Source: Candidatus Magasanikiibacteriota bacterium (lineage in GTDB: Bacteria > Patescibacteriota > Patescibacteriia > Magasanikbacterales > GWA2-37-8). From it: a stretch of 64,000 nt of DNA. Below are positions 18,235 to 64,000 of this stretch, piece after piece (within the stretch, counting starts at the first letter, position 1; each line of letters begins with the position of its first letter). The stretch is taken from the NCBI GenBank assembly GCA_041665405.1, contig JBAYIZ010000006.1, positions 407-64,406 of the forward strand, in the 5' to 3' direction. The notes under the pieces are model-generated. The model was not told the DNA's origin and searched no databases. It saw only the letters and a list, made by a program, of their open reading frames with translations. Both the position numbers and the translations under genes were made by a program.

Positions 18235-18236
18235 AT

Positions 18237-48576: not shown

Positions 48577-48798
48577 ATGCGTGTGCTTCCCTCGATCCTG
48601 AACCAGAGCCGGAGACGGAGCGACAATTCCGCCGATTGCGGGCAGGTCGCGAGCTCCGAGGCCGACTTCATCCACAGGCAACTGCTCGAGCATGGCTTCT
48701 GCTCGGACATGAAGGAGGGCGCCGTCGGCACCGCCAACATGGTCGGCATCGTCTGTTCGACCGCGGCCGGCCGCGGAGCAGTAGTCCTCCTGGTGTAG
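48577..48798 (+). CDS. 73-aa protein of unknown function encoded in G+C-rich islet 4
   Basis: AAGGAG sits 8 nt before the ATG. By my codon-by-codon read, G/C at codon position 3 is very high in this frame only. Sequence: MRVLPSILNQSRRRSDNSADCGQVASSEADFIHRQLLEHGFCSDMKEGAVGTANMVGIVCSTAAGRGAVVLLV. Confidence 0.55.
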   Translation: MRVLPSILNQSRRRSDNSADCGQVASSEADFIHRQLLEHGFCSDMKEGAVGTANMVGIVCSTAAGRGAVVLLV

Positions 48799-48827
48799 GG
48801 CTCAGCTTCGTACGAGACAACCAGTGC

Positions 48828-48881
48828 GGCCGGACCGGGAGCTCCTTCGGGGGTTTCTGGTCCGGCCGTCGTTTCCTTTTT
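48828..48881 (+). terminator. GC-rich hairpin terminator after the islet 4 ORF
   Basis: GGCCGGACC...GGTCCGGCC (9 bp), followed by gtcgTTTCCTTTTTATT. Confidence 0.55.
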
Positions 48882-51638: not shown

Positions 51639-51683
51639 AATTAAAAAAATCGACCACACAAAGTAGTCGGTTTTTTTGTTTGT

Positions 51684-53282
51684 TTATTTTTTTATACTTC
51701 TCAACATTATTCTTTTAAAATCTTGCGCAATTTCATAACGCAAGCCTTTTCTATTTAAGTTAACCTTGTTTCTAAGAGTTTCTAAGTATGTTTTATGTTC
51801 TGAACTTGTTAAGTATTCTCGCATGATTTCATCCCTTAATTTTGCCCAATCCTCAGAGTTTTTAAGCCATTGTTTTTCTAGAGGGACACCTAATGTTTTG
51901 TACATTTTTGCTGGATCCATTACGCTATGCATAGTATCATGTTTTCTAAAAAGTTTTGGATTCTCTCGGGCGTTTTTTTCTTTTTCAAACATGTTACTAT
52001 ACATACCAAAATCGATAGTTCCAACGATAGGTGTCCAAATATTTATACGGTAGTTGGTTTGAGGATTTTTTTTCATAAATGTAAGCATGGTCTTCTTTAT
52101 TTCATCTTTTGTATATCGAAAATGTTCGGGTAACCCTAAGATTAGCAAGGTTCTCACCATGAGAAATTTTTTTGCAGAATTAATAAACTCTGTAGCCACT
52201 TCAAGACTATCGCCTTTTGCTAAATCTTTTCTATTGCCGATAACATCTTCTACACCAACGGCAATTTCAATACAGCCAGCTTCAGCCATTTCTTTAAATT
52301 TTCTTAAACCCTCAAACTGCTTGACGCTCATAAAAGCAACCCACCCCATCTTATTTTTATGTTGCTGATTGAAGTGTTTCATAAAATTTATAAAATCTTC
52401 AAAGTGTTTCGGGTTGGCATTTAGTAAGGCATCACGTACAAAAACAAAATCCTTACCTTGTTTATAAAGTTTTTTTATTTCATTTTTGGCTGTGTCAAGA
52501 CAAGACACATATCCACCATAAAAAGAATCACTAGTGCAGAAAGTGCATTTATGAATACATCCGGCGCTAGTAGCTGTCGAACCGGCATTTTTGAAGTGTT
52601 TGTCTAATTCTAAAAAAGGCATTTTATTTATTTGAGAGCCATCGGTAGAAGCCGCTACAGGTATCAATATCTCAAGAGCATTGTTTTCTGTTAGCCGAGG
52701 AAAATTTTTACCAGTTTTTTTAGTGTTTTCAACAATACATAAATTTGTGTTTGTATCCTTTGTTGTATACGCAATTGAGCCTATTTTTTTCAAAGGAACC
52801 CCTAACGATAGAGCCAACATTGGCAATTCTCCTTGTCCGGTACAACAAATATCTATCCCAGTAATTTCTGGGTGTTGTAAAATCCATTTATAATCAAGCG
52901 CAAAATGTTCAGCCCCTCCGATTACTGTTTTTTGAGGATACTTGTTTTTTATTTTACGACACAACTCAAAGGATTCATTTATACTAGTAGACTGACTACT
53001 AATGCCAATAATTTCGGATTGTTGAATAAGATTTTCCATTGCGGACGTTTTTTGGTCTTGAAGATATGCTATGTCCACCGATATGCCAAATTTTTTTAAG
53101 TATCCAGCTATTCTTTTGATGCCGAGATTTTCTAATCTTAAATGATATTCGTCGGCTTCATATTTGGATTCGGTTATGTTGCCGTCAATAAGTAGAACCC
53201 TTTTTCTGGGTAGTTTTTTGTTGAAAGCCATTTTTTGCAGAGCATTCAATGAAATAATTTGTGTTGTTGTCGAAGTTTCCAT
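51684..53282 (-). CDS. B12-binding-domain radical SAM enzyme (class B rSAM)
   Basis: N-terminal Rossmann-like B12-binding region, then CIHKCTFC (CX3CX2C). 532 aa. Confidence 0.75.
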   Translation of the reverse strand: METSTTTQIISLNALQKMAFNKKLPRKRVLLIDGNITESKYEADEYHLRLENLGIKRIAGYLKKFGISVDIAYLQDQKTSAMENLIQQSEIIGISSQSTSINESFELCRKIKNKYPQKTVIGGAEHFALDYKWILQHPEITGIDICCTGQGELPMLALSLGVPLKKIGSIAYTTKDTNTNLCIVENTKKTGKNFPRLTENNALEILIPVAASTDGSQINKMPFLELDKHFKNAGSTATSAGCIHKCTFCTSDSFYGGYVSCLDTAKNEIKKLYKQGKDFVFVRDALLNANPKHFEDFINFMKHFNQQHKNKMGWVAFMSVKQFEGLRKFKEMAEAGCIEIAVGVEDVIGNRKDLAKGDSLEVATEFINSAKKFLMVRTLLILGLPEHFRYTKDEIKKTMLTFMKKNPQTNYRINIWTPIVGTIDFGMYSNMFEKEKNARENPKLFRKHDTMHSVMDPAKMYKTLGVPLEKQWLKNSEDWAKLRDEIMREYLTSSEHKTYLETLRNKVNLNRKGLRYEIAQDFKRIMLRSIKK

Positions 53283-53288
53283 AGTATT

Positions 53289-53978
53289 TTATTTTTTACA
53301 CACAATCAAAGCGGTGTTGGTGCGCAAGAATTTGAGTTCGACTTTGAATCCGACATTCTTTAACCATTTAATCTGATCTTCAATTGGAGCAAGATCGTTT
53401 AAGAACATGTGGTGGTATGCCCACTCGGTCAAAGTTTTTTTGTCTGTCGCATTTTCCACCAAGTGATGAAAGTGCAAAGCGTTATTAAGCGCGGCGGTAT
53501 GTTTGTCTTGGTAAGTCACCAAATCTCCAAAAATAAATACGCCGCCTGATTTAAGCAAAGAATATATTTTTTTGAATAATTTCTTTTTACCGGCTGTGTT
53601 TTGGTGATGAATGCCGATTACTGAAACTATTAAATCATATTTAATATCAAATTTAATTTTGGAGTAATCACCATAAACATATTTTACATTTTTGCCAAGT
53701 TTTTTCTTGGCACTGTTTATCATTTGTCTGGAGAAATCCACCACCGTTAGTTTGCTATTTGGTAGAACATCTTTTATTAATTTGCTAGTAAGACCAGTAC
53801 CAACTCCAAGATCCAACATTTTAATATTTTTGTTCACAAAAGCTTTTTTTGCGTAATTCAAAATATTATAATGAATTTCTAAGTGGTGCGGAATGGAATT
53901 TACAATATCTCGGTCATATTTGTTTAATGAATAATGGTCGTAATTCAACTGAGACGGTTTTACATTGGTTGTTTTCAT
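53289..53978 (-). CDS. class I SAM-dependent methyltransferase
   Basis: Motif I MLDLGVGTGLTS, followed by post-I/II acidic residues. Confidence 0.8.
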   Translation of the reverse strand: MKTTNVKPSQLNYDHYSLNKYDRDIVNSIPHHLEIHYNILNYAKKAFVNKNIKMLDLGVGTGLTSKLIKDVLPNSKLTVVDFSRQMINSAKKKLGKNVKYVYGDYSKIKFDIKYDLIVSVIGIHHQNTAGKKKLFKKIYSLLKSGGVFIFGDLVTYQDKHTAALNNALHFHHLVENATDKKTLTEWAYHHMFLNDLAPIEDQIKWLKNVGFKVELKFLRTNTALIVCKK

Positions 53979-53980
53979 AT

Positions 53981-55336
53981 TTATGAGGTTATTTTATTTA
54001 TAGCGACGATCAACCGTTCGATATCATTGTTTGTATTGCATAGAGCGATAGAGGCGCGAATTAGGGCTGGAATGGTTTTGACGTTGCCATGTTTAACTGA
54101 ATCGACAATGGCATTATCGTTCTTTATTCCTAAAAGTTTTCGTATTACGTGATAGGTACAGAAACTTCCCGCTCTTACACCGATTCCGTATTCGCTATTA
54201 AGTCTTTCGGCCACTTCGTTGGAATCCATATTTTTTATACGAAACGGTATAACGGTTCCTAATTTTTCTTTTTTAACAAACATTTCTACGTTGGGGTTTT
54301 TCTTTAGTGCATCAAACAGTTTGTTTGTTAAAGTTGATTCATACTGACAAATTTTATCTATGCCAATTTTTTTGAGTTGCTCAAGTGCAATAGCCATGGT
54401 AACCGCACCGATAGCATTAGGCGTGCCTGGATCGTGTGCGAGTTGATTTCTGTATCGCAAGAACTCGCCAGTTTTTGTTATGTAAGGAAGATTACCGCCA
54501 CCAATTTGATAAGGTAAAAAAGAATCAAGAAAGTTTTTTGGTCCGATTAAGAAACCTCCGCCATATGGGGCGTAAAACTTATGACCAGAAGCGGCCAAAA
54601 AATCTATTCCCATTTCTTTCATATCCAATTTGTGATGTTGTAAAAATTGGCAGGCGTCAACCAGAAAATATGCGCCATATCGGTGAGCAAGCATTCCAAT
54701 TTTTTTAATATCAGGACAATATCCCGTAACATTTGAAGAAGCAGTAAGAACTAATACTTTGATATGATTTTTTTTGAGTAAATTTTCTATTATGTCTAAA
54801 TCAAATTCAAAATTTTCATTAACATCATATTGTAATACTTGGCGACGTCCTAAGTATTGAATTTGTTCGTTGACGCTATCCATTTCTCCAAAAGTATTTT
54901 GTTGTCCACCCAAAGCTTTGATACCTTCAGATTTTATCCAAGGCAACCAAGATGAACTATGCTCAATAGACGACACAGCGATTTTTCCTTTTAGGAAAGA
55001 AAAAAAGTGGGCGGCTGTATTGATTGCCCCAGTAGTATTATTGGTAAACAAAACATATGAATCAGACGGAGCATTAACAAAGGATTTGATTATCTCGCGA
55101 CTGTTTTCATATACATCGGTGGAGATTTTTGATTTTTTCCCCGCGCCACGATGTACCGATCCGTAGCTAGTTATGTATTTTGATAGTCCGCGTTCGACTG
55201 TTTTAAGGGGAGGAGTGGTGGCAGCATTGTCCAAGTTCACATAATCAACTTTTCCTAAAATTGAGGTTGTGACTGCGTATTTTAGGATTTTGGTTGAAAA
55301 CAGTTTGGTAGGGTCAATTTGGCTTGGTTTGTTCAT
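53981..55336 (-). CDS. class V aminotransferase / cysteine desulfurase-like PLP enzyme
   Basis: The PLP-lysine context ASGHKFYAPYGGGFLIG is present. The fold-type I pattern runs throughout. Confidence 0.8.
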   Translation of the reverse strand: MNKPSQIDPTKLFSTKILKYAVTTSILGKVDYVNLDNAATTPPLKTVERGLSKYITSYGSVHRGAGKKSKISTDVYENSREIIKSFVNAPSDSYVLFTNNTTGAINTAAHFFSFLKGKIAVSSIEHSSSWLPWIKSEGIKALGGQQNTFGEMDSVNEQIQYLGRRQVLQYDVNENFEFDLDIIENLLKKNHIKVLVLTASSNVTGYCPDIKKIGMLAHRYGAYFLVDACQFLQHHKLDMKEMGIDFLAASGHKFYAPYGGGFLIGPKNFLDSFLPYQIGGGNLPYITKTGEFLRYRNQLAHDPGTPNAIGAVTMAIALEQLKKIGIDKICQYESTLTNKLFDALKKNPNVEMFVKKEKLGTVIPFRIKNMDSNEVAERLNSEYGIGVRAGSFCTYHVIRKLLGIKNDNAIVDSVKHGNVKTIPALIRASIALCNTNNDIERLIVAINKITS

Positions 55337-55485
55337 ATATGCTATTTGTTATTAAATAACGCGTTATAATAGCATTTTTTACACATTCCGTCAATCATTT
55401 GGGACACACAAACTTGACAAAAGATAGTAAATAAGCTAAAATACAGAATATATTATTCCGTGTCGTAAATTATTGACAACTAAAT

Positions 55486-56220
55486 ATGGAAAATTTGAAT
55501 ATTCTAAAAGAACTCGGTTTAGACGACCAAGAAGCGAGTGTATATATGGCTTTATTAAAATTGGGTGGATCTCAAGCCAGTGTTGTAGCCAAAGATGTTG
55601 GCATTAAACGGACAACAGTTTACCCTGTTTTGCAGGCGTTGGCGGCCAAAGGGATGGTAAATGTTTATTTTCGAAAAAACCGCCATTTCTATTATGCTCA
55701 AAAACCAAATAGAGTGGTGGGTATTTTCAAAAAGAAAATAGAATCATTTGAAAGTATTATTCCAATGTTGGAACTAGTTGAAAAAAAACAAGTGATGGCC
55801 ACGGGTTTGCGCTTTATTGAAACAGTTGAAGAATTAAAACAATTTTATAACGGAATTTTAGATGAGTATAAAGGGAAGCAATATCTGGCAATTGGAAATA
55901 CGGCGGCATGGGAGGGATTGGAACCAGAATTTTTTGTAAACTTTCGTAGACAAAGAGCAGAAAATAAAATTAAAACGAAATTACTATTAACATTTAATTC
56001 TGTCGAAATAAATCCAATAGAAACCTCGCTATTAAGAGAGTGGAAATATCTTCCTGAAAAATATAAATTTCAAAGTACGATAGATATTTTTAATGATAAA
56101 ATTTTGATTGTGAGTCCGGAGCTAAGTTCGTTGGCGGTGGTGATCGCGGTGCCGGCGATGACGGATATTTTTAAATCTGTTTTTGAGATGTTGTGGCAGA
56201 TGTTGCCGGAGGTGAAATAA
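55486..56220 (+). CDS. TrmB-family winged-HTH transcriptional regulator (paralog 1, short form)
   Basis: N-terminus LKELGLDDQEASVYMALLKLGGSQASVVAKDVGIKRTTVYPVLQALAAKGMV. A TTGACA-17-TAAAAT promoter lies at about 55413-55441. Confidence 0.8.
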   Translation: MENLNILKELGLDDQEASVYMALLKLGGSQASVVAKDVGIKRTTVYPVLQALAAKGMVNVYFRKNRHFYYAQKPNRVVGIFKKKIESFESIIPMLELVEKKQVMATGLRFIETVEELKQFYNGILDEYKGKQYLAIGNTAAWEGLEPEFFVNFRRQRAENKIKTKLLLTFNSVEINPIETSLLREWKYLPEKYKFQSTIDIFNDKILIVSPELSSLAVVIAVPAMTDIFKSVFEMLWQMLPEVK

Positions 56221-56226
56221 TTAAAA

Positions 56227-56261
56227 CAAAAAACCGATTGCAATATGCAGTCGGTTTTTTT
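56227..56261 (+). terminator. conserved terminator shared by the TrmB-like modules (copy 1)
   Basis: AAAAAACCGATTGCaataTGCAGTCGGTTTTTTT. Near-identical copies are at 61129 and 63042. Confidence 0.8.
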
Positions 56262-56269
56262 AGTTTATT

Positions 56270-57910
56270 TTACTCAATAAAAAGATTTTCCGTAGAATAA
56301 TTATTTTTTATTAATTTATCATTTATTAAAACTTTTATAATTTCATCAACCACTGAATTAAAATCATCTGGAATTGTATCAAAGAATTCTATCTTTTTTA
56401 ATGATTCGGTTAATTCGCGCTCAGGTATCCCAACATGAGATGAGGCAATATTTATTACCTCTTTTTCTTGTTTTTTCCATATCGCGACGGATTGATTCCA
56501 CACCTTCTTAATTTTTTCAATCTCTTTGGTTTTTTGTTGTAGTAATTTATTGTTTACAATCAATACATCATATAGGATAGGATAATCGTTTGTGGTTTTT
56601 AAAATATTTATATTTGAAAGTTCAAGCGCTTTTTCAAGCCATGGCTCCCAAATAATTCCAGCTTCAATATTACCCGCGATAATTCCAGCTCCAATTTCAG
56701 AGCATTGCATATCTTTAATTTTTACATCTTTAGAGGTCATCCCTTCTTTTTGGAGAATATATGAGAGAAAAAATTCCGCCACCGATCCTTTTTCGAGTCC
56801 TATGGTTTTACCTTTTAATTCAATTACGGATTTTATATTTGACTGTGCAACTAACGCATCGCCACCGACGGAGCGATTCAATACCTTTACTATTCTAAGA
56901 TCTGTTATTTTTGAGTGTAATTCGATGGCTTTATCTAGGGTAACATTTATTGCGTCTAGCTTTCCTTGCTCCCACAGCTCAACTTTTTTCTTGTTATCTT
57001 CAAAATTGATTTGTTCCACATCAAGCGACTCGTCGATAAACAGACCGCTATCTTTTGCATAGTAAAGGGGGGTGTTTCCAGACCAAATATATAATCCCAT
57101 TTTGAAAACATCAGTATCAGTAACAATCCCTTCTTCCAAGCTCGCCTTGATTGATTCTGAACGAATAATGTAACTGATGAACTTTTTTAGTTTTATAAAA
57201 TCTTCATGGAATCTGATTTCAGGTTTTCGTGGTCGTTTGATATTTACTTTTACTACCTGTTTGACAGTTCCTGGATTTAGTCCTAAGACAATAATTCTAT
57301 CCGCTAAGTATATTGCTTCATCAATGTCATGGGTGACTAAAATCATTGTTTTTTGTTCTTCTTCCCATAGTCTTGCTAAAAATTCTTGCATTTGAGATCT
57401 CGTTTGTACATCAAGAGCGCCAAAAGGTTCGTCAAATGCAATTAGGTCAGTCTGTTGTGCTATTGCTCTGGCAATAGCGATTCTTTGTTGCATGCCTCCT
57501 GAAAGCTTGTTGGGGAAATAATCTTTGACCTTGTAAAGGCCAACTCGTTTAAGTAATTTGTTAGTTTCAGTACGTACTTCAGTCTCAGACATATTTTTAC
57601 CGTAAAATCCAATGGCAATATTTTCGAAAACATTCAACCAAGGAAAATTAGAGTATTGCTGAGAAACTAATGCAATTCTATTATTTTCTAAATATTTGGA
57701 GCTGTCTAAACCATTGATTTTTATATTTCCTTCGAATACAGTGTCCAAACCTGTTACGCATTTTAAAATAGTGCTTTTACCTGAGCCGCTTGGGCCAACT
57801 ATACACACTATCTCCCCCTTTTTTATATCAAAAGAGATATCATTTATTGCGATAAAAGATTTATTTTCGCGATCATAATAATGTTTAGTTAGTTTGTGGA
57901 CTTCAATCAT
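56270..57910 (-). CDS. ABC transporter ATPase (NitT/TauT-type) fused to a C-terminal periplasmic-binding-protein-like domain
   Basis: An internal ATG at 57910 gives MIEVHKLTKHY... Walker A GPSGSGKST, signature LSGGMQQR, Walker B LIAFDEP. About 300 further aa resemble an NMT1/SsuA-like fold. Confidence 0.8.
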   Translation of the reverse strand: MIEVHKLTKHYYDRENKSFIAINDISFDIKKGEIVCIVGPSGSGKSTILKCVTGLDTVFEGNIKINGLDSSKYLENNRIALVSQQYSNFPWLNVFENIAIGFYGKNMSETEVRTETNKLLKRVGLYKVKDYFPNKLSGGMQQRIAIARAIAQQTDLIAFDEPFGALDVQTRSQMQEFLARLWEEEQKTMILVTHDIDEAIYLADRIIVLGLNPGTVKQVVKVNIKRPRKPEIRFHEDFIKLKKFISYIIRSESIKASLEEGIVTDTDVFKMGLYIWSGNTPLYYAKDSGLFIDESLDVEQINFEDNKKKVELWEQGKLDAINVTLDKAIELHSKITDLRIVKVLNRSVGGDALVAQSNIKSVIELKGKTIGLEKGSVAEFFLSYILQKEGMTSKDVKIKDMQCSEIGAGIIAGNIEAGIIWEPWLEKALELSNINILKTTNDYPILYDVLIVNNKLLQQKTKEIEKIKKVWNQSVAIWKKQEKEVINIASSHVGIPERELTESLKKIEFFDTIPDDFNSVVDEIIKVLINDKLIKNNYSTENLFIE

Positions 57911-57914
57911 AATT

Positions 57915-58664
57915 TTAAATTTTGTATTTGAAGATGTGTGGGTATAGTTTTTTGAAAATATAATCTGAGAAAAAACCAATTATTCCAATGACAACGATTC
58001 CGACATATAAATCCGGTATATTAGAAAACCTTTGTGCTTCCTTGATCATGTGACCAATACCAGAATTTGCGGCAACCAACTCTGCAATTACGAGATAAGT
58101 CCAACACCACCCCAATGTTATTCGGGAATTATTAAATAATTGCGGAGCGATACTCGATAGTTTTATCTTTAGCACTTTATATTTACTAAAATTTAAGGTA
58201 TGAGATAAATCTAGATATTCTTTAGGAACATTATTTAAATCATCTATTACTAATAAGATAAGTTGAAAAAAAGTGCCAATGAATAAAAGTGATATTTTAG
58301 CACCTTCTCCTATACCAAAAAATAAAATTGTTAATGGGATTAAGGCTGGCACGGGTAAATATCTAATAAAGTCTATATATGGCGAAAGTAAATCGTGTAG
58401 TTTTTTCCACGAACTCATCAATAGCGCGAGCGAAAGAGCAATAACAAAAGCTAACAAGAACGCTACTAAAACTCGAAAAATAGAAATACCAATATCTAAC
58501 ACAAAGGATTTTTCTAAAAACAATTTTTGTGTCGCTGTTAAAAAATCCTGTATTGTCGGAAAGAATATGGGGTTTATAAGTTTAATCCATGAACCCAAAA
58601 TCCACAGTGATAATAAAATCACTATGGAAATTGGGAAGATATAATTTCCTCTAAACAGTTTCAT
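57915..58664 (-). CDS. ABC transporter permease (NitT/TauT family)
   Basis: 6-TM BPD_transp_1-type protein with an EAA-like loop. It lies between the SBP and ATPase genes. Confidence 0.85.
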   Translation of the reverse strand: MKLFRGNYIFPISIVILLSLWILGSWIKLINPIFFPTIQDFLTATQKLFLEKSFVLDIGISIFRVLVAFLLAFVIALSLALLMSSWKKLHDLLSPYIDFIRYLPVPALIPLTILFFGIGEGAKISLLFIGTFFQLILLVIDDLNNVPKEYLDLSHTLNFSKYKVLKIKLSSIAPQLFNNSRITLGWCWTYLVIAELVAANSGIGHMIKEAQRFSNIPDLYVGIVVIGIIGFFSDYIFKKLYPHIFKYKI

Positions 58665-58676
58665 GGAGATATTAAT

Positions 58677-59678
58677 TTACTTATAACTTGTAATTGTCTT
58701 GTCTGATAATTTATCGCTTGATTTTACCCTTACTCCTGCCGAGTTGTTGCTTTCTAAAATATTACCCACAAGATCAAAAGTTAAATAAGCATTGTTGACT
58801 TGTTTCTTGTCAAACAATTTTTGATTATCTTCTAGCGTCAGCCAACTAACTCCTGATTTGATATCATTCATTTCAGCCTTATCTACACCAAAGGCGTCAG
58901 CCATAATTTGCATTGATTCATCTGGATTCTTTTGCCAATAATCGACAGCTGAAAACCAACCATCCGAAATCTTTTTAAGAACTTCTTGGTCGTTTTTAAC
59001 TAAATTTTCTGAGGCAAATAATAAATCGACAATTAAACCTGGTGTATCTGCACTTGAAACCAATATCTTTGCTCCGGCTCTTTTATCTGCGCTAATAGAT
59101 AAATAAGGTTCATAAGTAGCAGCAACATCTACCTGGCTCGCAACAAATGCATTTCCTGCGTCTGCTGAAGGAAGGTCTTTGAAGCTTACATCTGCCAAGC
59201 TTAATCCTTCTTTATTTAACAAATATTGTAAGATGAAATAAGGAGGAAAACCAGGTTCAGCGGCGACTGTTTTACCTTTTAAGTCTTTCAGTTCTGAAAT
59301 GTTACTAGAAACAACCACGCCATCGCCACCATGTGATTCGTCTATAGCAAGGAATCCAACCCCTGGAGGTTCATTACCTTCTACAGCTTGAAAAATATCA
59401 TACGTTGCAGCGTACATGTCGATCTGTCCGCTGTTCATAGCGGCCCTAAGATCACCGATTGATTCAATTCGAACCAAATTTACATCTACATCATTAAAAA
59501 AATTTTTTTCTTTTGCTAAGTATAGCGGTGCATATCCAGGAAATGTAACCATCCCGATAGTAACTGATTTTTTAGATTGTAGATTTTTTGTGTCATTCTT
59601 GTTACTTTGTGTAAAAACAATTACTAACACAACCACGACGAATAGGGCAACGATTGTCCTGATGATTTTCTTATTCAT
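58677..59678 (-). CDS. ABC transporter substrate-binding protein (NMT1/THI5/SsuA-like)
   Basis: N-terminal anchor or signal sequence, type 2 PBP pattern, first gene of the operon. Confidence 0.8.
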   Translation of the reverse strand: MNKKIIRTIVALFVVVVLVIVFTQSNKNDTKNLQSKKSVTIGMVTFPGYAPLYLAKEKNFFNDVDVNLVRIESIGDLRAAMNSGQIDMYAATYDIFQAVEGNEPPGVGFLAIDESHGGDGVVVSSNISELKDLKGKTVAAEPGFPPYFILQYLLNKEGLSLADVSFKDLPSADAGNAFVASQVDVAATYEPYLSISADKRAGAKILVSSADTPGLIVDLLFASENLVKNDQEVLKKISDGWFSAVDYWQKNPDESMQIMADAFGVDKAEMNDIKSGVSWLTLEDNQKLFDKKQVNNAYLTFDLVGNILESNNSAGVRVKSSDKLSDKTITSYK

Positions 59679-59809
59679 ACTTTTTATGTTAATTAAGGAA
59701 TTATTTGATTATGTGTTTATTGTAGCATTTTTTTTGGCAGTTGAAAAACAGCGGTAGACGTTAACATTGTTAACAGAACATAATATCACAAAACTAAGGT
59801 TTTGTCAAT

Positions 59810-59909
59810 GGTGTCACTTGACTTATGGTGACACTTATGATATGATAGTATTGCCTCTGTAAAGAGCAAAAACAACACAGTGTGTCACTGGTATGGTGAC
59901 AAATGTGAC
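59810..59909. promoter_or_regulatory. GTGTCAC/GTGACA(C) operator cluster overlapping the promoter of TrmB-like paralog 2
   Basis: GGTGTCACttgacttatGGTGACAC (IR, 59810-59833) overlaps TTGACT-17-TATGAT. A second set is GTGTCACtggtatgGTGACAaatGTGACA (59882-59909). Confidence 0.55.
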
Positions 59910-59948
59910 AAAAACCATGTTATTCTATAATTTTTATCCACACCATTT

Positions 59949-61118
59949 ATGCTGATAAAAGACCTCCAATCTATCGGTTTTACCAAGAATCTATCTGAGG
60001 TTTATTTGTCTTTAGCCCAATTGGGAGGCCAGGCCAAAGCTGGGGAAATCATCAAAAAGACAGGTTTACACCGAAATATCGTTTATATTTGTTTAGACAA
60101 ACTAATAGAAAAGCAATTATTAACTAAAACCGAAGAACGCGGTGTTACTATTTATAAAACACTAGATCCAGCCCGACTAATGAATGAAATTCGAGAAAAA
60201 GAACAATTAACAACAAATATTATTGAAGAAATTGAAGCATTAAAAAAGCATCCAGACACTCAAGAAATAATTGTCCACGAAGGTTTGGAAGGTTTTAGAA
60301 ATTTCAATCTCTATACTTTGAAAAAAATCGAAGAAGGTGGCACATTGCAAGTGCTTGGTTCCATTGGAGATAAATGGTTTGAATACATGGGTGAAGAAAA
60401 GTACAAAGAATATATAAAAATACAAAACAAGAAAAAAATTAAGTGGGAGATGATTACTTATTTTGATTCAAAACGCGACAAACAATTTATTAATGACTAT
60501 CCAGAATTATGCGAGGTAAAATTATTACCGCAGACATATGATAATCCGGCCAGCATTTATATTTTTGGAGATACAATTTCAATAAATATTTTTACCGAAC
60601 CATTTTCGGTGATTGAAATAAAAAATCGCGCGGTGGCGGATGTATATAGAAATTATTTTAGTTTGTTGTGGAACCAAGAAGTGTTTACCTATCGCGGTTG
60701 GGATGCGATTGATAAAATTTTGTGTGCGAATTTGGAAGATGGATTTACTTATGATGTTTTTGGGGCAACATATGGTGTGGGTACAAAAGAGGAACAAGAT
60801 CGCGTGTTGGAATTTTTTATGGAGAACCACAGAAAGACCGCACACTTTAAACCAAATAGACGATTGATATTTTTTGAACAAGATCGTGAGCAGGCGGCTA
60901 AAGAAGTTTCTCCGTTGGATGCAGACACTCGTAAAAATGTTCGTTTGCGTTTTCTGTCAGACAAATATTTTTCGCCGATGGAGACACATTTGTTTAAAGA
61001 TAAAGTAATTTTAATTTTTTCTTTTGGCGAACCAATCGCGACAGTTTATACCAATCCAAAAATAATTGAAGTTTACAAAAAACAATTTGAGTTGTGGTGG
61101 GGGATGTCGGTGGAATAA
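59949..61118 (+). CDS. TrmB-like wHTH regulator with a large C-terminal domain (paralog 2)
   Basis: N-terminus LQSIGFTKNLSEVYLSLAQLGGQAKAGEIIKKTGLHRNIVYICLDKLIEKQLL. It shares GLHRN(I/L)VY and (L/F)WNQE with paralog 3. Confidence 0.75.
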   Translation: MLIKDLQSIGFTKNLSEVYLSLAQLGGQAKAGEIIKKTGLHRNIVYICLDKLIEKQLLTKTEERGVTIYKTLDPARLMNEIREKEQLTTNIIEEIEALKKHPDTQEIIVHEGLEGFRNFNLYTLKKIEEGGTLQVLGSIGDKWFEYMGEEKYKEYIKIQNKKKIKWEMITYFDSKRDKQFINDYPELCEVKLLPQTYDNPASIYIFGDTISINIFTEPFSVIEIKNRAVADVYRNYFSLLWNQEVFTYRGWDAIDKILCANLEDGFTYDVFGATYGVGTKEEQDRVLEFFMENHRKTAHFKPNRRLIFFEQDREQAAKEVSPLDADTRKNVRLRFLSDKYFSPMETHLFKDKVILIFSFGEPIATVYTNPKIIEVYKKQFELWWGMSVE

Positions 61119-61128
61119 AATTTAAAAA

Positions 61129-61162
61129 CAAAAAACCGATTGCAGATTGCAGTCGGTTTTTT
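61129..61162 (+). terminator. conserved TrmB-module terminator (copy 2)
   Basis: AAAAAACCGATTGCagatTGCAGTCGGTTTTTTG. Confidence 0.8.
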
Positions 61163-61308
61163 GATAACTTCTTGAGCTCAACAAGATGTTGGAGTGAATG
61201 AGCGGTCACTACCAGCCGCGTGACTTTTTGTTTTACCGGTAGTCACAAACCGGATGATCCCAGACCCCTCATCAGCGGACCATTGAATTGTCCTGAAACT
61301 TTGCACCT

Positions 61309-61707
61309 CTACGCCTGTTCGCGACAGGGCAGGCATTCGTAGCCCACCCAAAGGCCGTTGGCAAAGGTGAAGTCGAAGTCCCAGCGGTTGTCACCACCGT
61401 ACCAGCAGAGGCTGGCAGTGTATTTGAATCCATTGGGGGCGAGAAGAGTGGTGCCAGTGAGCACGATCTTCTTCTTACGCATTTTCATCGGAATCTGGTC
61501 TTGGTGGTCAAGCAGTTGCTGGCCGTCACGCACTCCAAGGACGCCATTCCGACGACGTGCGCGTTCGCGCAATTCGGAGCCCTTGATGCATTCCTCGCCA
61601 CGCTTGAGGCACGACTCGATCCGGAGCTTGTTGATGTGAAGATCTGCAATTGGATCACAGTCTTCCACAACCTTAAACTCCACCCTGTTCCAAACGAATG
61701 TATTCAC
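61309..61707 (-). CDS. 132-aa cytoplasmic protein of unknown function encoded in G+C-rich islet 5
   Basis: The GTG start is preceded by AAGGAGG at 6 nt. The frame is open across the whole G+C-rich segment. No signal peptide and no family recognised. Confidence 0.6.
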   Translation of the reverse strand: MNTFVWNRVEFKVVEDCDPIADLHINKLRIESCLKRGEECIKGSELRERARRRNGVLGVRDGQQLLDHQDQIPMKMRKKKIVLTGTTLLAPNGFKYTASLCWYGGDNRWDFDFTFANGLWVGYECLPCREQA

Positions 61708-61775
61708 CTTTCACCTCCTTGCGGTTCTGACAGGTTGGTTGCTCTGAAGAGAGCAATTGTTGTTAACAACTCAAT

Positions 61776-61804
61776 AAAATATCATATTTCACTTTATTGG
61801 TCAA
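61776..61804 (-). promoter_or_regulatory. sigma70-type promoter reading into G+C-rich islet 5
   Basis: Minus strand reads TTGACC-17 nt-TATTTT. It is homologous to the islet 6 promoter. Confidence 0.5.
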
Positions 61805-61865
61805 TCATTTTATCCCTAAAATTAGCAAAAAAATCAGATAAAAGCTGACAAAATTATGTTGGGGG

Positions 61866-61894
61866 TTGACTTTTTGGCTAAATTCATATAAAAT
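61866..61894 (+). promoter_or_regulatory. promoter of TrmB-like paralog 3
   Basis: TTGACT-17 nt-TAAAAT, followed by the shared TCATAAATAATATGAcAAT-ATG leader. Confidence 0.6.
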
Positions 61895-61918
61895 AATCAT
61901 CATAAATAATATGACAAT

Positions 61919-63031
61919 ATGTTAGAACAAAAACTAGAAAAACTTGGTTTTGGAAAAAACGAAGTGAAAGTATATCTAGCTCTTTTTGATTTGGGTAAAT
62001 GTAAAGCCAAACAAATCATTGATAACACAGGTCTTCATCGTAATCTTGTCTACACGGCACTTGATGATTTGATTGGAAAGAAATTAATTTCAAAAGTCGA
62101 GAGTAATGGAATTTTTTTATTTTGGGTTAATAGCCCTGAACTTTTGAACGAAATAATAGAAGAAAAAGCTATAACGGCAAAAGAAGTGATTGAACAATTA
62201 AAAAAGAAAAGCGCCAGTCAACCTCGTGAGATATTAATTTATGAAGGTGAAGAGGGTGTGAAGAAAAGTCGCACCAAAGTTTTAACATATGGAAAAGGAG
62301 ATACATTTTATATGTTAGGAACAAAAGCGAGTTTCTCGCCTTCGATGGAAAAATTTTCAAAGGAGTTTGATTCGCTAAGAATTAAAAAGGGAATTTATTC
62401 AAAAATTTTAGTCGAACATGATGTGAATAAAGATGAACTTAAACATCTTAATAAAATGCCACTTAGTGAAGCCAAGCACCTTCCTCTTGATTTGGAAATG
62501 CCTATTTGGTTTTCAGTTATTCAAGATTATTTGGAAATTGGCATCCCAGGCGTTGATCCACTGATTTTTTCGATAAAAAATAAAGCGGTGGCTGGGGCAA
62601 TAAAAAAATTTATAGATTTTTTCTGGAATCAAGAATCCGAAGTTGTTACAGGCGCAAAGGCTTTACAAGAGATTATGTTGGAATCCATTGATTATGGTGA
62701 GTTGAAAGGTATCGGCGCAAAAGGCAATTTTTTTGAAAATTATCCGGGATTTTTTAATGATATAAAAAAGCGAGCAGTAATGAAACAAGGACTGGTCTGG
62801 AGAAACATTGTTGATCCAAGTATGAAAGGGCATGAGATTACAAAATTTTTGTGGACTAAAACAAAATATAATTTATCCGATACAAAAAATCCCAATGTTG
62901 TTTGGTTGTATGGCCCGAAAGCTGTGATTATAAATTGGGCGGATAAAGAACCTGTGATGTTTGTTTCTACAAATAAGGCGCTAGTGCAAAGTTATAATGA
63001 TTATTTTGAGGAGATGTGGGGTAAAGATTAA
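61919..63031 (+). CDS. TrmB-like wHTH regulator with a large C-terminal domain (paralog 3)
   Basis: N-terminus MLEQKLEKLGFGKNEVKVYLALFDLGKCKAKQIIDNTGLHRNLVYTALDDLIGKKLI. Confidence 0.75.
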   Translation: MLEQKLEKLGFGKNEVKVYLALFDLGKCKAKQIIDNTGLHRNLVYTALDDLIGKKLISKVESNGIFLFWVNSPELLNEIIEEKAITAKEVIEQLKKKSASQPREILIYEGEEGVKKSRTKVLTYGKGDTFYMLGTKASFSPSMEKFSKEFDSLRIKKGIYSKILVEHDVNKDELKHLNKMPLSEAKHLPLDLEMPIWFSVIQDYLEIGIPGVDPLIFSIKNKAVAGAIKKFIDFFWNQESEVVTGAKALQEIMLESIDYGELKGIGAKGNFFENYPGFFNDIKKRAVMKQGLVWRNIVDPSMKGHEITKFLWTKTKYNLSDTKNPNVVWLYGPKAVIINWADKEPVMFVSTNKALVQSYNDYFEEMWGKD

Positions 63032-63041
63032 CACTAAGAAC

Positions 63042-63075
63042 AAAAAACCGATTGCGATATGCAGTCGGTTTTTTA
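63042..63075 (+). terminator. conserved TrmB-module terminator (copy 3)
   Basis: AAAAAACCGATTGCgataTGCAGTCGGTTTTTTA. Confidence 0.8.
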
Positions 63076-63168
63076 ATTACTTCTTGAACCAAAATGATTT
63101 AGTTCGAAAAGTAGCTGCGCGTCTTTTTGACCGGGACGCGCAACCGGGTGAGAGGGTGGAACCGGACG

Positions 63169-63660
63169 TCACAGGAATGCGATTCCCAGTGACGGCTGGA
63201 ACAGCAACGAGTAATCGCCGCCATCCAGGGTCTTCGCCAGTCCAAATGCCATGGACAGCGACAGACCGTTTCCGATTCCGTAGGCCAGGCCGGTGCCCAG
63301 ACCAACCAAGTCGGAAGACGGCTTGCCGCCGTAACCGACATTGCGCTGGTAGAGCACGCTGGCCTGGGTGGACCAACGATCAGTCAGTCCCAGCGACACA
63401 CCTGCAGAGAGGCGTGGGCTGGGCTTGCAACTGTCGTTGGGGGTGGCCAGCCCGATTCCGCCCGCGATGGACACCTTGTTGGAGACCTTCTCCGACAGCG
63501 AGATGTCGTAGCGGGTGGAGGCCGAGGCGGGGGTGAGCCCGTCCTTCAGGAGGACGACGTAGCCCTCCCGGATGTTGAAGACCGGGGTCAGGGCGCTGGC
63601 CGAAGCCGAGACACCGCTCAGAACCACGGCCACCAGGACGATCAGGGTGGAGATCTTCAT
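63169..63660 (-). CDS. secreted small beta-barrel-like (OMP-like) protein encoded in G+C-rich islet 6
   Basis: GAGGTG lies 4 nt before the ATG. Signal peptide is MKISTLIVLVAVVLSGVSASASA|L. The protein has Gly-rich alternating strands and a C-terminal ...QPSLGIAFL. Confidence 0.6.
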   Translation of the reverse strand: MKISTLIVLVAVVLSGVSASASALTPVFNIREGYVVLLKDGLTPASASTRYDISLSEKVSNKVSIAGGIGLATPNDSCKPSPRLSAGVSLGLTDRWSTQASVLYQRNVGYGGKPSSDLVGLGTGLAYGIGNGLSLSMAFGLAKTLDGGDYSLLFQPSLGIAFL

Positions 63661-63736
63661 GGGACACCTCTGCAGACCAGAAGGCCTGCCATCTGCATTA
63701 GTCAGTCAGGTTGCATTTGCGAACCCATACTGCTTT

Positions 63737-63786
63737 TGCCAGACGAAATAGTTCACAATAGATCTTATGGACTATTTCGTCTGGCA
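63737..63786 (-). promoter_or_regulatory. 16-bp perfect hairpin in the 5' leader of the islet 6 gene
   Basis: TGCCAGACGAAATAGT-N18-ACTATTTCGTCTGGCA lies between the promoter (63829-57) and the ATG (63660). No T-run follows it. Confidence 0.5.
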
Positions 63787-63828
63787 GTTGTAAAGAACAG
63801 TGTTACGGGTTATTGATCGTAACAAGCC

Positions 63829-63857
63829 AGTATATCATATATTTGTATACTTGTCAA
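63829..63857 (-). promoter_or_regulatory. sigma70-type promoter reading into G+C-rich islet 6
   Basis: Minus strand reads TTGACA-17 nt-TATACT. Confidence 0.6.
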
Positions 63858-63920
63858 GGGTTTTTTGGCTAAAACTAGCTAAAAACAAGCATAAATAAGG
63901 ATGACAAAAAAATCATAAAC

Positions 63921-63949
63921 TTGACAAATTTGGCTAATCATAGTATAAT
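63921..63949 (+). promoter_or_regulatory. promoter of TrmB-like paralog 4
   Basis: TTGACA-17 nt-TATAAT, followed by the shared TCATAAATAATATGAtAAT-ATG leader. Confidence 0.6.
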
Positions 63950-63975
63950 AATATTGTCATAAATAATATGATAAT

Positions 63976-64000
63976 ATGTTAGAAAACGAGCTTTTAAAAC
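63976..64000 (+). CDS. start of a fourth TrmB-like paralog (truncated by the window end)
   Basis: ATG TTA GAA AAC GAG CTT TTA AAA gives MLENELLK, compared with MLEQKLEK in paralog 3. The upstream region is homologous. Confidence 0.5.

What the first reader, a model, noticed from the sequence alone, without database searches (positions are those of the whole stretch)
55337..64000. Tandem array of TrmB-like regulator modules, each divergently paired with different cargo
Seen in sequence: four genes in the same orientation (55486, 59949, 61919, 63976) start with a TrmB-type wHTH.
- Paralogs 2-4 share N-terminal sequence (MLEQKLEK / MLENELLK; GLHRN(I/L)VY).
- Three are followed by an almost identical terminator, AAAAAACCGATTGC-N4-TGCAGTCGGTTTTTT (56227, 61129, 63042).
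- Modules 2 and 3 also share about 25 nt beyond the terminator (A(T/A)(A/T)ACTTCTTGA(G/A)C...).
- Modules 3 and 4 share a homologous divergent promoter region of about 150 nt, including TTGGCTAA and TCATAAATAATATGA-AAT-ATG.
- Each regulator is divergent from a different unit: the rSAM/MTase/PLP operon, a NitT/TauT-type ABC importer, G+C-rich ORF 61309-61707, and G+C-rich ORF 63169-63660.

The conserved framework (promoters, regulator, terminator) is duplicated while the sequence between frameworks is unique. In the last two cases that unique sequence is compositionally foreign.

Inference: this looks like a cassette-style locus in which a regulator-plus-promoter scaffold is reused to domesticate variable cargo. 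The array may continue past the window end.
Basis: partly seen in the sequence, partly recalled or inferred. Interest (0 to 1): 0.85.

Follow-up and report, generated by a model that had tools for sequence, protein, structure and literature searches.

The report
TrmB-regulator array with swappable GC-rich cassettes
A candidate-phyla (Magasanikbacteria) chromosome carries six tandem units, each a TrmB-type regulator facing a different divergently transcribed cargo behind a conserved promoter/terminator framework; in the best-sampled units the cargo is an unusually GC-rich gene for a small exported beta-barrel-like protein, and it differs between related genomes.

Summary
The source contig (Ca. 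Magasanikbacteria MAG) has six TrmB-like genes in 16 kb between polA and holA, all on the + strand. Each is built as hairpin terminator | minus-strand cargo | bidirectional control region | regulator.

The regulators have a TrmBL2-like fold: wHTH, coiled coil, then 1-4 PLD-like domains without the HKD motif.

The paralogs are only 23-39% identical. Their terminators and, for units 3/4, a ~190-nt control region with a palindrome (TCATAAATAATATGA) are far better conserved, including across genomes.

The GC-rich ORFs are genuine genes (GC3 0.63-0.85 against 0.27-0.41; dN/dS 0.23). ORF A belongs to a new family of signal-peptide proteins modelled, at modest confidence, as 8-stranded Ail/OmpX-like barrels.

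In 16 related loci, 17 of 29 GC-rich islands lie within 1.2 kb upstream of TrmB-like genes (P about 8e-9). Relatives carry different cargo in the same framework, or lack whole units.

"Foreign cargo being domesticated" is only partly right. The ORF A/regulator-4 pairing is old and conserved, GC-richness persists over deep divergence, and similar GC-rich genes occur elsewhere without TrmB.

Verdict: new variant of a known kind, moderately high interest.

The parts
51643..51677 (.). Decayed copy (T0) of the shared hairpin terminator, right after polA. It is the left border of unit 1.
   Evidence: It aligns with an intact copy in L034 that is 100% identical to terminator 3.
51684..55336 (-). Cargo 1: a B12-binding radical SAM gene (51684-53282), a methyltransferase (53289-53978) and a class-V PLP enzyme (53981-55336). 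Composition is ordinary.
   Evidence: ORFs; Pfam families from the contig gene table. L034 and L055 lack the rSAM gene.
55337..55485 (.). Control region 1: divergent sigma-70-like promoters (- 55394-55366, + 55414-55442) and an imperfect palindrome TGTCGTAAATTATTGACA (55461-55478) just before the ATG.
   Evidence: Promoter scan. The same motif lies upstream of the regulator-1 ortholog in L034.
55486..56220 (+). Regulator 1, 244 aa: TrmB wHTH plus one C-terminal domain.
   Evidence: PF01978 E 1e-16. Orthologs in L034 and L055.
56228..56260 (.). Terminator T1, a bidirectional hairpin (A-tract, 9-bp stem, T-tract).
56270..59678 (-). Cargo 2: a NitT/TauT-type ABC importer. It comprises an ATPase fused to an NMT1 binding domain, a permease (57915-58664) and an NMT1/THI5-like binding protein (58677-59678). 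Composition is ordinary.
   Evidence: Pfam ABC_tran, NMT1 and BPD_transp_1. In L003, L028, L032 and L033 the same framework instead holds a GC-rich exported-protein gene.
59679..59948 (.). Control region 2: promoters (- 59808-59780, + 59818-59846) and two GTCAC...GTGAC palindromes (59810-59834, 59882-59901).
   Evidence: The palindromes are conserved upstream of regulator-2-type genes in L003, L014, L028 and L032/33.
59949..61118 (+). Regulator 2, 389 aa: wHTH plus two repeats.
   Evidence: PF01978 E 2.6e-8. The ortholog in L003 is 85% identical at the DNA level, dN/dS 0.035.
61130..61260 (.). Terminator T2 (61130-61162) plus a conserved ~95-nt 3' element: palindrome CTTCTTGAGCTCAACAAG and GCGGTCACTACCAGCCGCGTGAC...CCGGTAGTCACAAACCGG.
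   Evidence: The same element (75-89% identity) follows three other, different cargo ORFs in L034 (twice) and L009. A few pairs covary. No Rfam match.
61309..61707 (-). Cargo 3 (ORF B), 132 aa, GC 0.55, GC3 0.67. GTG start preceded by AAGGAGGTGA.
   Evidence: 364 homologs by exhaustive HMMER, no Pfam family. Homologs in three other genomes are also GC-richer than their neighbours.
61708..61918 (.). Control region 3: promoters (- 61804-61776, + 61866-61894), a TTTGGCTAA box and the operator-like palindrome TCATAAATAATATGA (61900-61914).
61919..63031 (+). Regulator 3, 370 aa: wHTH, coiled coil and two PLD-like domains without an HKD motif.
   Evidence: AF2 pLDDT 88.7. Foldseek top hits are TrmBL2 5bqt (E 8e-12), PLD3, F13 and TrmB 3qph. 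No HKD.
63042..63074 (.). Terminator T3. An independent Logan contig ends exactly here.
63169..63660 (-). Cargo 4 (ORF A), 163 aa, GC 0.63, GC3 0.82: signal peptide plus eight predicted beta strands.
   Evidence: dN/dS 0.23 against the 78%-identical ortholog. AF2 pLDDT 63 with Foldseek hits to Ail, NspA, OmpX and OmpA, TM 0.54-0.59. Homologs next to TrmB-like genes in L003, L009, L025, L029, L055 and L056.
63737..63786 (-). A hairpin of about 21 bp in the predicted 5' UTR of ORF A.
   Evidence: Inverted repeat I5. Fold z-score -7.6. Partly conserved in L003.
63829..63975 (.). Control region 4: cargo promoter (- 63857-63829, TTGACA-17-TATACT with TG), two TTTGGCTAA boxes, a second imperfect palindrome (63889-63906), the regulator promoter (+ 63921-63949, 12/12 consensus) and the operator-like palindrome (63957-63971).
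   Evidence: Phylogenetic footprint across nine control regions from different genomes; conservation stops at the cargo -10 box.
63976..64000 (+). Start of regulator 4. It is 650 aa in the source contig (to contig-equivalent position 65928): wHTH plus four repeats.

Best explanation
This is a lineage-specific tandem expansion, to six units, of a two-part module that is conserved in Magasanikbacteria and neighbouring Patescibacteria.

Part one is a TrmBL2-like DNA-binding protein: wHTH, coiled coil, then one to four PLD-like domains lacking the HKD catalytic motif. Part two is a divergently transcribed cargo.

The two are joined by a bidirectional control region (about 190 nt in the best-sampled units 3 and 4). 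It holds two near-consensus sigma-70 promoters and palindromes of the type GTCA(T/C)-N7-10-(A/G)TGAC. One palindrome sits on the regulator's own transcription start and leader. A bidirectional hairpin terminator closes each unit.

Shown: the architecture, the conservation of the framework, the protein fold, the reality of the cargo genes and their variation between genomes.

Inferred:
(a) Each regulator binds its palindromes, represses itself and controls the facing cargo in response to a ligand sensed by the PLD-like domains.
(b) Cargo and whole units are exchanged or lost by homologous recombination within the conserved framework (terminator/3' element on one side, control region plus regulator on the other). 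No dedicated recombinase is involved.
(c) The commonest cargo, small exported beta-barrel-like proteins, are fast-evolving envelope or host-contact proteins. That would explain the turnover.

The high GC of many cargos is a stable property of these genes and remains unexplained.
For: Architecture and extent:
- Six TrmB-like genes, and only these, lie at 55.5-71.4 kb of the 73 kb examined, all on the + strand.
- The best promoter-like matches in the region fall exactly at the predicted divergent positions.
- Each unit is bounded by a copy of one hairpin family.

Framework more conserved than genes:
- Paralogs are 23-39% identical.
- Terminators are 75-87% identical over 53 nt, and the regulator-3/4 palindrome is identical.
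- Nine control regions from different genomes align, with invariant promoter and palindrome positions. The alignment ends at the cargo -10 box.
- Regulator-2-type genes carry their own conserved GTCAC...GTGAC palindromes.

Regulator identity:
- PF01978; AF2 pLDDT 88.7; Foldseek hits TrmBL2, TrmB and PLD-superfamily proteins; no HKD.
- 57 homologs fall into length classes of about 245, 370, 515 and 646 aa.
- Known TrmB proteins bind palindromes such as TATCAC-N5-GTGATA, and some autoregulate (PMC4158304).

Cargo is real:
- GC3 > GC1 > GC2 in frame; dN/dS 0.23; Shine-Dalgarno sequences; 364 homologs of ORF B.

Coupling:
- 17 of 29 GC-rich islands lie in the 12.9% of sequence within 1.2 kb upstream of TrmB-like genes in 16 loci, binomial P 8e-9.
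- All the cargo ORFs called in these upstream islands are divergent, and the regulator-4 type always faces family 1/3.

Turnover:
- L009, L010, L025 and L027 have the regulator-4 gene directly followed by holA, preceded by a family-1 cargo where the upstream sequence is available; in L009 this unit comes right after polA. Here 20.7 kb lie between polA and holA.
- L034 has flanks 89% identical but a different cargo and a different middle regulator.
- L003 lacks unit 3.
- No recombinase lies between polA and holA.
Against: - No binding, transcription or ligand data exist. The operator assignment rests on phylogenetic footprints only.
- Units 5 and 6 lack the shared palindrome and terminator motifs.
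- The loci were retrieved through the regulator, are not phylogenetically independent and are mostly short contigs, so the P value is only indicative.
- The beta-barrel model has pLDDT 63 from a two-sequence alignment, and Pfam OMP_b-brl is below threshold.
- Patescibacteria are generally held to lack an outer membrane (own knowledge), so the site of action of such a protein is unknown.
- GC-rich single-gene islands also occur without TrmB neighbours. Composition and TrmB pairing are therefore separable.
- Homologous recombination as the exchange mechanism is inferred from mosaic structure alone.
Confidence: 0.6

Rival explanations
1. This is an ordinary paralog expansion in an accessory-gene hot spot. 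The TrmB-like genes duplicated in tandem, and unrelated accessory genes accumulated between polA and holA. Shared promoters and terminators are leftovers of duplication or generic signals, and the regulators do not control their neighbours.
For: - The polA-holA interval clearly varies in content between genomes.
- Three cargos are ordinary metabolic genes.
- GC-rich genes also occur elsewhere.
- Sigma-70 hexamers and A/T-flanked hairpins are generic.
Against: - The control region, including non-promoter positions (palindromes, TTTGGCTAA boxes), is conserved across genomes and across paralogs that are only 39% identical.
- The divergent pairing recurs outside the polA-holA context (L056).
- It also recurs in 17 of 25 TrmB-like genes surveyed.
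- The terminator sequence is specific to this locus.
Confidence: 0.15
2. This is chromatin-type silencing. Like archaeal TrmBL2, these proteins coat DNA rather than act as specific local regulators, and they are kept beside compositionally deviant (GC-rich) genes to silence or insulate them.
For: - The best structural match is TrmBL2, described as a chromatin protein and global repressor that binds coding and intergenic DNA.
- Cargo is often a compositional outlier.
Against: - Known xenogeneic silencers recognise AT-rich DNA (own knowledge), whereas here the outliers are GC-rich.
- Conserved, regulator-type-specific palindromes argue for sequence-specific binding.
- Three cargos have normal composition.
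- Cargo genes are under purifying selection and have near-consensus promoters. That is not expected for genes kept permanently silent.
Confidence: 0.1
3. This is an integron-like or other site-specific cassette system. The conserved hairpin-rich 3' element acts as a recombination site (an attC analogue) for a recombinase encoded elsewhere.
For: - A ~150-nt structured element follows four different cargo ORFs in three genomes.
- Cassettes differ in composition from the host, as in many integrons (own knowledge).
- An assembly graph breaks exactly at a terminator.
Against: - No integrase or transposase lies between polA and holA or among the window ORFs annotated.
- Every cassette has its own promoter and alternates with a regulator gene.
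- The element includes a plain bidirectional intrinsic terminator.
- The element is absent from ORF A's 3' side apart from about 25 nt.
Confidence: 0.07
4. This is an artefact: the GC-rich stretches are chimeric assembly joins or non-coding RNA genes.
For: The composition change is abrupt, and a gene caller chose the wrong strand for one island.
Against: - The same junctions appear in a second assembly and in other samples and species.
- Codon-position GC, dN/dS 0.23, signal peptides and protein homologs show the stretches are coding.
- No Rfam family matches.
Confidence: 0.02

Closest known systems
TrmB family regulators, especially TrmBL2 (Thermococcales; PDB 5bqt) and TrmB (3qph)
   Same: N-terminal PF01978 wHTH, a long coiled-coil helix and a PLD-like C-terminal domain. 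The best Foldseek hits are these proteins. The palindromic half-sites resemble the TGM TATCAC-N5-GTGATA, and the genes sit next to the transport or metabolic genes they would control (PMC4158304).
   Different: - The proteins are bacterial (Patescibacteria).
- They have no sugar-binding subdomain (no PF11495).
- They carry one to four tandem PLD-like repeats (about 245, 370, 515 or 646 aa), an architecture I found no description of.
- Six occur in tandem.
- The partners are mostly GC-rich genes for small exported proteins.
Divergently transcribed local regulator/target pairs (for example LysR-type regulators; TrmB with the trehalose/maltose ABC operon)
   Same: Back-to-back promoters, an operator overlapping the regulator's own start, and one regulator per adjacent target.
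   Different: Here the pair is iterated six times head to tail with a shared non-coding framework. The target inside the framework differs between close relatives.
Integron cassette arrays
   Same: A row of small, compositionally deviant, largely orphan genes, each followed by a structured element. Content varies between strains.
   Different: There is no integrase nearby. The cassettes have their own promoters and are interleaved with regulator genes, and the 3' element is an intrinsic terminator plus hairpins.
Flank-homology replacement loci (Neisseria 'minimal mobile elements', pneumococcal capsule locus); own knowledge
   Same: Conserved flanks, unrelated or very divergent content between strains, and no mobility genes. 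Exchange is presumed to occur by transformation and homologous recombination.
   Different: The flanks here are regulatory DNA plus a regulator gene, repeated in tandem, so recombination can also add or delete whole units.
Small 8-stranded outer-membrane barrels (Ail, OmpX, NspA, OmpA N-domain)
   Same: Signal peptide, eight strands of 10-13 residues, usually a C-terminal aromatic residue, TM-score 0.54-0.59 to these structures.
   Different: - No sequence-level membership: Pfam hits are below threshold and there is no PDB sequence hit.
- Model confidence is modest.
- The host phylum is thought to lack an outer membrane.

Membership tests
TrmB family (PF01978) transcription regulators | N-terminal winged-helix DNA-binding domain scoring above the Pfam gathering threshold | tested here: met
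   Scores of 60.9, 34.0 and 40.4 bits against a cut-off of 25.6 for regulators 1-3. Regulators 4-6 carry PF01978 in the contig table.
TrmB family (PF01978) transcription regulators | Coiled-coil helix followed by a PLD-like domain, as in TrmB and TrmBL2 structures | tested here: met
   AF2 model with pLDDT 88.7: helix 75-98 and two alpha/beta domains. Foldseek hits 5bqt at E 8e-12, 3qph at E 1e-8 and PLD-superfamily enzymes.
TrmB family (PF01978) transcription regulators | Sugar-binding effector subdomain (PF11495) of TrmB/TrmBL1 proper | tested here: not met
   No PF11495 hit at E <= 0.1. NCBIfam TrmB/TrmBL1 equivalogs match only residues of about 1-100, far below their cut-offs. The proteins are therefore TrmBL2-like, not sugar-sensing TrmB.
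TrmB family (PF01978) transcription regulators | Sequence-specific binding to a palindromic operator, with autoregulation | not testable with these tools
PLD superfamily enzymes | HxKxxxxD catalytic motif | tested here: not met
   No HKD motif in any of the six regulators.
Integron | IntI-type tyrosine recombinase adjacent to the array | tested here: not met
   None among the genes between polA and holA or among the 20 large window ORFs scanned. The rest of the genome was not seen.
Integron | Promoterless cassettes in one orientation, each ending in attC | tested here: not met
   Each cargo has its own near-consensus promoter and alternates with a regulator. A shared 3' hairpin element exists but includes an intrinsic terminator.
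Outer-membrane beta-barrel proteins (PF13505 and relatives) | Pfam score above the gathering threshold | tested here: not met
   ORF A scores 19.4 bits against 28.7. Four of 11 family members give sub-threshold OMP_b-brl hits.
Outer-membrane beta-barrel proteins (PF13505 and relatives) | Signal peptide, even number of amphipathic strands forming a closed barrel, C-terminal aromatic residue | tested here: inconclusive
   There is an N-terminal hydrophobic helix, eight strands and Foldseek hits to Ail, NspA and OmpX. Most relatives end in F, while ORF A ends in L. The model has pLDDT 63 from two sequences.
Outer-membrane beta-barrel proteins (PF13505 and relatives) | Organism has an outer membrane and BAM machinery | not testable with these tools
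   Only 73 kb of the genome were seen, and no Omp85 was found among the ORFs scanned.
Xenogeneic silencing systems (H-NS, Lsr2, MvaT, Rok) | The silencer targets DNA that is more AT-rich than the genome | tested here: not met
   The deviant genes are GC-rich.
Flank-homology cassette replacement loci | Conserved flanks with unrelated content between related genomes and no mobility genes | tested here: met
   In L034 the flanks are 89% identical but the cargo is different. L003 lacks unit 3. In L028/L033 family 2 replaces the ABC operon. No recombinase.

The most novel reading that the evidence does not exclude
The GC-rich cassettes form a shared, rapidly exchanged pool of host-contact genes of Patescibacteria. 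One example would be self-inserting 8-stranded barrels delivered into the envelope of the bacterial host.

Each cassette would be switched on by a dedicated TrmBL2-like sensor whose PLD-like repeats (lacking the HKD motif) read a host-derived ligand.

Their persistently high GC would be a by-product or requirement of that lifestyle: GC-biased gene conversion at a recombination hot spot, or selection on the transcript. It would not be a trace of recent import.
Probability: 0.15. Interest if true: 0.85.

Novelty: new variant of a known kind. Interest (0 to 1): 0.62.

Why it matters
- Patescibacteria are abundant, mostly uncultured epibionts, and how they regulate genes and contact hosts is largely unknown.
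- This locus offers a concrete, testable regulator/operator/target system: defined palindromes and six paralogs with distinct partners.
- It reveals a TrmB-family architecture with one to four PLD-like repeats that I found no description of.
- It reveals a new family of small exported beta-barrel-like proteins in a phylum thought to lack an outer membrane.
- It also exposes an unexplained phenomenon. Single genes keep GC3 of 0.65-0.87 inside genomes with GC3 near 0.3 over deep divergence. This challenges the routine use of composition as a marker of recent horizontal transfer.

Tried and rejected
- **Non-coding RNA in the GC-rich islands.** Rfam found only two tRNAs in the window at gathering score, and nothing near threshold in 61050-64000 or 44100-44800. 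Coding signals are strong.
- **Chimeric assembly.** Rejected because an identical second assembly and other samples show the same junctions.
- **Defence-system or phage origin.** PADLOC and PHROGs gave no hits for cargo or regulators, apart from wHTH similarity to Csa3/CasR. NCBIfam gave nothing for eight GC-rich ORFs.
- **Donor search.** ORF A and the 23349-23822 ORF have only themselves, plus one relative for ORF A, among 5.8 billion clusters. This search has a word prefilter.
- **PLD catalysis.** No HKD motif.
- **Sequence link of the cargo family to solved structures.** None.
- **Families.** Family 1 and family 3 proved to be one family (hhalign 99.5%). Family 2 and the 23349 ORF are not detectably related.
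- **Literature.** Five searches were run. Four, on Patescibacteria/CPR plus TrmB, GC-rich genes, beta-barrels or hypervariable surface proteins, found no prior description; the fifth retrieved the TrmB-family literature used above.
- **Not available.** The afdb50 fold library was not available.

Full report
**Observation**

- Four plus-strand ORFs start at 55486, 59949, 61919 and 63976. The three complete ones match Pfam TrmB (PF01978) above threshold.
- The hairpin AAAACCGATTGC-N4-TGCAGTCGGTTTT occurs only at 56230, 61132 and 63044 in the 64 kb, with none expected by chance.
- About 25 nt beyond terminators 2 and 3 are shared.
- The regions upstream of regulators 3 and 4 share 54-57-nt repeats and an identical TCATAAATAATATGA that occurs nowhere else.
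- The ORFs at 61309-61707 and 63169-63660 lie in segments of 56.5% and 63.6% GC, in a window of 38% GC.

**Source and extension**

Regulator 3 is encoded on a 97.6-kb ENA contig that is identical to the window over the 12,082 nt of overlap, and on an identical 7.7-kb Logan contig. NCBI names the organism a Candidatus Magasanikbacteria MAG.

The window is chromosomal and close to dnaA/dnaN. Beyond position 64000 the contig holds:
- regulator 4 (650 aa) and a degenerate copy of the terminator;
- argG on the minus strand;
- a fifth TrmB-like gene;
- DUF3800 and DUF4325;
- two GC-rich minus-strand ORFs;
- a sixth TrmB-like gene;
- a GC-rich plus-strand ORF;
- holA.

A profile of the six N-termini finds no other copy in the 73 kb. 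A decayed copy of the terminator follows polA.

The locus between polA (ends 51638) and holA (starts at contig-equivalent position 72398) is therefore six units built alike: hairpin | minus-strand cargo | divergent promoters | plus-strand regulator. The strongest promoter-like matches fall at the predicted places.

**The regulators**

The paralogs are old, at 23-39% pairwise identity.

An AlphaFold model of regulator 3, built from a 40-sequence alignment, has pLDDT 88.7. It shows a wHTH, a long helix and two alpha/beta domains. Its best PDB matches are TrmBL2, PLD-superfamily enzymes and TrmB. None of the six proteins has an HKD motif.

Each repeat of about 135 aa ends in an F..(L/F)W.Q-like motif. 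The counts are 1, 2, 2, 4, 1 and 1 repeats. The 57 database homologs, all from Patescibacteria where named, fall into length classes of about 245, 370, 515 and 646 aa.

There is no sugar-binding subdomain. These are therefore TrmBL2-like members of the TrmB family, with a multi-repeat architecture I found no description of.

**The GC-rich cargo is real coding sequence**

In the predicted frames GC3 is 0.63-0.85, against 0.27-0.41 for the regulators, polA and argG, with GC3 > GC1 > GC2.

ORF A has a 78%-identical ortholog in another sample, with dN/dS 0.23. The adjacent regulator 2 gives 0.035. ORF B has a strong Shine-Dalgarno sequence and 364 homologs with no Pfam family. In three other genomes its homologs are also GC-richer than their neighbours.

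ORF A was modelled from only two sequences, so confidence is modest (pLDDT 63). The model has a signal helix and eight strands, and resembles Ail, NspA, OmpX and OmpA at TM 0.54-0.59. Pfam gives only sub-threshold outer-membrane-barrel hits, and there is no PDB sequence hit.

**Comparative evidence for coupling**

Scans of species-representative genomes and of metagenome contigs with a regulator alignment returned 46 loci.

In the Patescibacteria loci, a GC-rich island of roughly 450 to 1,070 nt where complete (50-63% GC against 34-44% background) lies immediately upstream of most multi-repeat TrmB-like genes. The archaeal one-repeat relatives have none. Counted over 16 loci, 17 of 29 islands fall in the 12.9% of sequence within 1.2 kb upstream of a TrmB-like gene (binomial P 8e-9). 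This figure is indicative only, because the loci are related to one another and were retrieved through the regulator.

The cargo ORFs called in these upstream islands are all divergent from the regulator. Most encode signal-peptide, beta-rich proteins of 160-290 aa that usually end in F.

The exported cargo proteins fall into these groups:
- Families 1 and 3 are one family (hhalign 99.5%; alignment A10). This family always faces the regulator-4 type. That holds even in a different genomic context and in a 49% GC genome, where the cargo is 66% GC.
- Family 2 is unrelated at sequence level and faces the regulator-2 type.

**The framework**

Nine control regions from different genomes, facing family 1, family 3 or ORF B, align over about 190 nt. 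The order of elements is:
1. cargo -10 and -35;
2. a TTTTGGCTAA box;
3. an imperfect GTCA...TGA(C/T)A palindrome;
4. regulator -35;
5. a second TTTGGCTAA;
6. regulator -10;
7. the palindrome TGTCAT-N7-ATGACA abutting the ATG.

Similarity stops at the cargo -10 box.

Regulator-2-type genes instead carry GTCAC-N7-10-GTGAC palindromes, two of them in the window at 59810-59834 and 59882-59901. Regulator 1 and its orthologs carry TGTCG-N8-TGACA. These half-sites resemble the TATCAC-N5-GTGATA motif bound by TrmBL1/Tgr (PMC4158304).

On the other side, terminator 2 plus about 95 nt (61130-61260) recurs at 75-89% identity after three different cargo ORFs in L034 and L009. It shows some compensatory changes and has no Rfam match.

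**Turnover**

- L009, L010, L025 and L027 have the regulator-4 ortholog directly followed by holA, preceded by a family-1 cargo where the upstream sequence is available (L010 shows an XRE gene and no GC island there). In L009 this single unit follows polA directly. The 20.7-kb array here is therefore an expansion.
- L055 has two units.
- L034 is the closest relative, 89% identical in the regulator-4 region and in the 3' element. It carries a different middle regulator and a family-3 cargo where this genome has ORF B, regulator 3 and ORF A.
- L003 goes from regulator 2 straight to ORF A and regulator 4, and so lacks unit 3. Its regulator 2 faces a GC-rich exported-protein gene instead of the ABC importer.
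- L028 and L033 have family 2 facing a 668-aa regulator 2, and family 3 facing regulator 4.
- No recombinase lies within the interval.
- The Logan contig ends exactly at terminator 3. That fits a branch in the assembly graph at a cassette border.

**Interpretation**

The shown facts fit a conserved regulator/target module that has been multiplied in tandem, and whose contents are replaced or deleted by recombination within its conserved non-coding framework.

Three things are inferred, not shown:
- that the regulators bind the palindromes, repress themselves and control the cargo;
- that the PLD-like repeats sense a ligand;
- that the exchange occurs by homologous recombination.

The idea that the cargo is recently foreign is not. 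The regulator-4/family-1/3 pairing is old, and GC3 stays high between orthologs only about 30% identical. GC-rich single-gene islands also occur at 10906-11505, 23257-23876, 44251-44641 and 48489-48871 without any TrmB gene. Three cargos have ordinary composition.

Why these genes stay GC-rich is unexplained. Candidate causes are selection on the transcript, GC-biased gene conversion in a recombination hot spot, or a shared GC-rich gene pool.

**Rivals**

- Coincidental co-location in a hot spot is weakened by the cross-genome conservation of the control region and by the pairing outside this context.
- A chromatin or silencing role like that of TrmBL2 is possible, but it fits poorly with type-specific palindromes and with GC-rich rather than AT-rich targets.
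- An integron-like mechanism lacks an integrase, and the cassettes are not promoterless.
- Artefact and RNA-gene readings are excluded.

**Verdict**

The finding is real, more regular and more widespread than the window shows, and not described in the literature searched. It is a new variant of a known kind: TrmB-family local regulators with divergent targets. Two features deserve follow-up: the swappable cassette framework, and the persistently GC-rich genes for exported beta-barrel-like proteins in a phylum thought to lack an outer membrane.

Noticed in passing
window 23257-23876 (ORF 23349-23822, minus strand): Another GC-rich island (60% GC, GC3 0.78). It encodes a signal-peptide, beta-rich 157-aa protein ending ...GAGTF and is transcribed divergently from the rpsL promoter. 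It is an orphan in the 5.8-billion-cluster search and is not detectably related to the TrmB-paired families.
   Followed up: partly
window 10906-11505 (ORF about 11007-11420, minus strand): GC-rich island between tgt and uvrD. It has a consensus TTGACA-17-TATATT promoter and an AT-rich host-type terminator, and encodes a roughly 137-aa protein with one hydrophobic helix. No family hits.
   Followed up: partly
window 48489-48871 (ORF 48577-48797, plus strand): GC-rich 73-aa ORF between tRNA-Cys and polA, with its own promoter and a GC-rich terminator. The syntenic genome L009 has a shorter, unalignable segment there with no GC-rich island, so the island is strain-specific.
   Followed up: partly
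window 44251-44641: GC-rich (55%) segment between the trigger factor gene and the next gene, with no convincing ORF and no Rfam match. L009 has a different GC-rich segment at the same position.
   Followed up: partly
L001 17348-18565 and 19767-20321 (contig-equivalent positions 69266-70483 and 71685-72239, beyond the window): Three further GC-rich orphan ORFs (194, 201 and 184 aa; GC3 0.63-0.78) flank the sixth TrmB-like gene. None has Pfam, NCBIfam, PADLOC or PHROG hits.
   Followed up: partly
L009 9429-9850, L010 300-550, L055 4874-5284, L034 3282-3668: Cassettes in relatives often include a small XRE-type HTH gene beside, or instead of, the beta-barrel-like gene. This suggests a second regulatory layer.
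   Followed up: no
window 63737-63786: A perfect-looking hairpin of about 21 bp in the predicted 5' UTR of ORF A (fold z-score -7.6), partly conserved in L003. It may be a cis-regulatory element.
   Followed up: partly
window 63074 (end of Logan contig L002): An independent assembly of a public run stops exactly at terminator 3, and starts at 55351 inside control region 1. This hints that co-occurring strains differ at the cassette borders.
   Followed up: no
window 35048-37842 and the cumulative GC skew minimum near 36 kb: dnaN and dnaA together with the skew minimum place the replication origin about 20 kb from the array. All six regulators are co-directional with replication, and most cargo (all but the GC-rich ORF after regulator 6) lies on the lagging strand.
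   Followed up: no
window 14211-20888 and 879-3386: A type IV pilus cluster (PilB, PilC with an SH3 domain, small pilin-like ORFs, a Laminin_G_3 protein) and an 835-aa LTD+PKD surface protein. These are typical Patescibacteria host-contact and DNA-uptake equipment, and are relevant to exchange by transformation.
   Followed up: no
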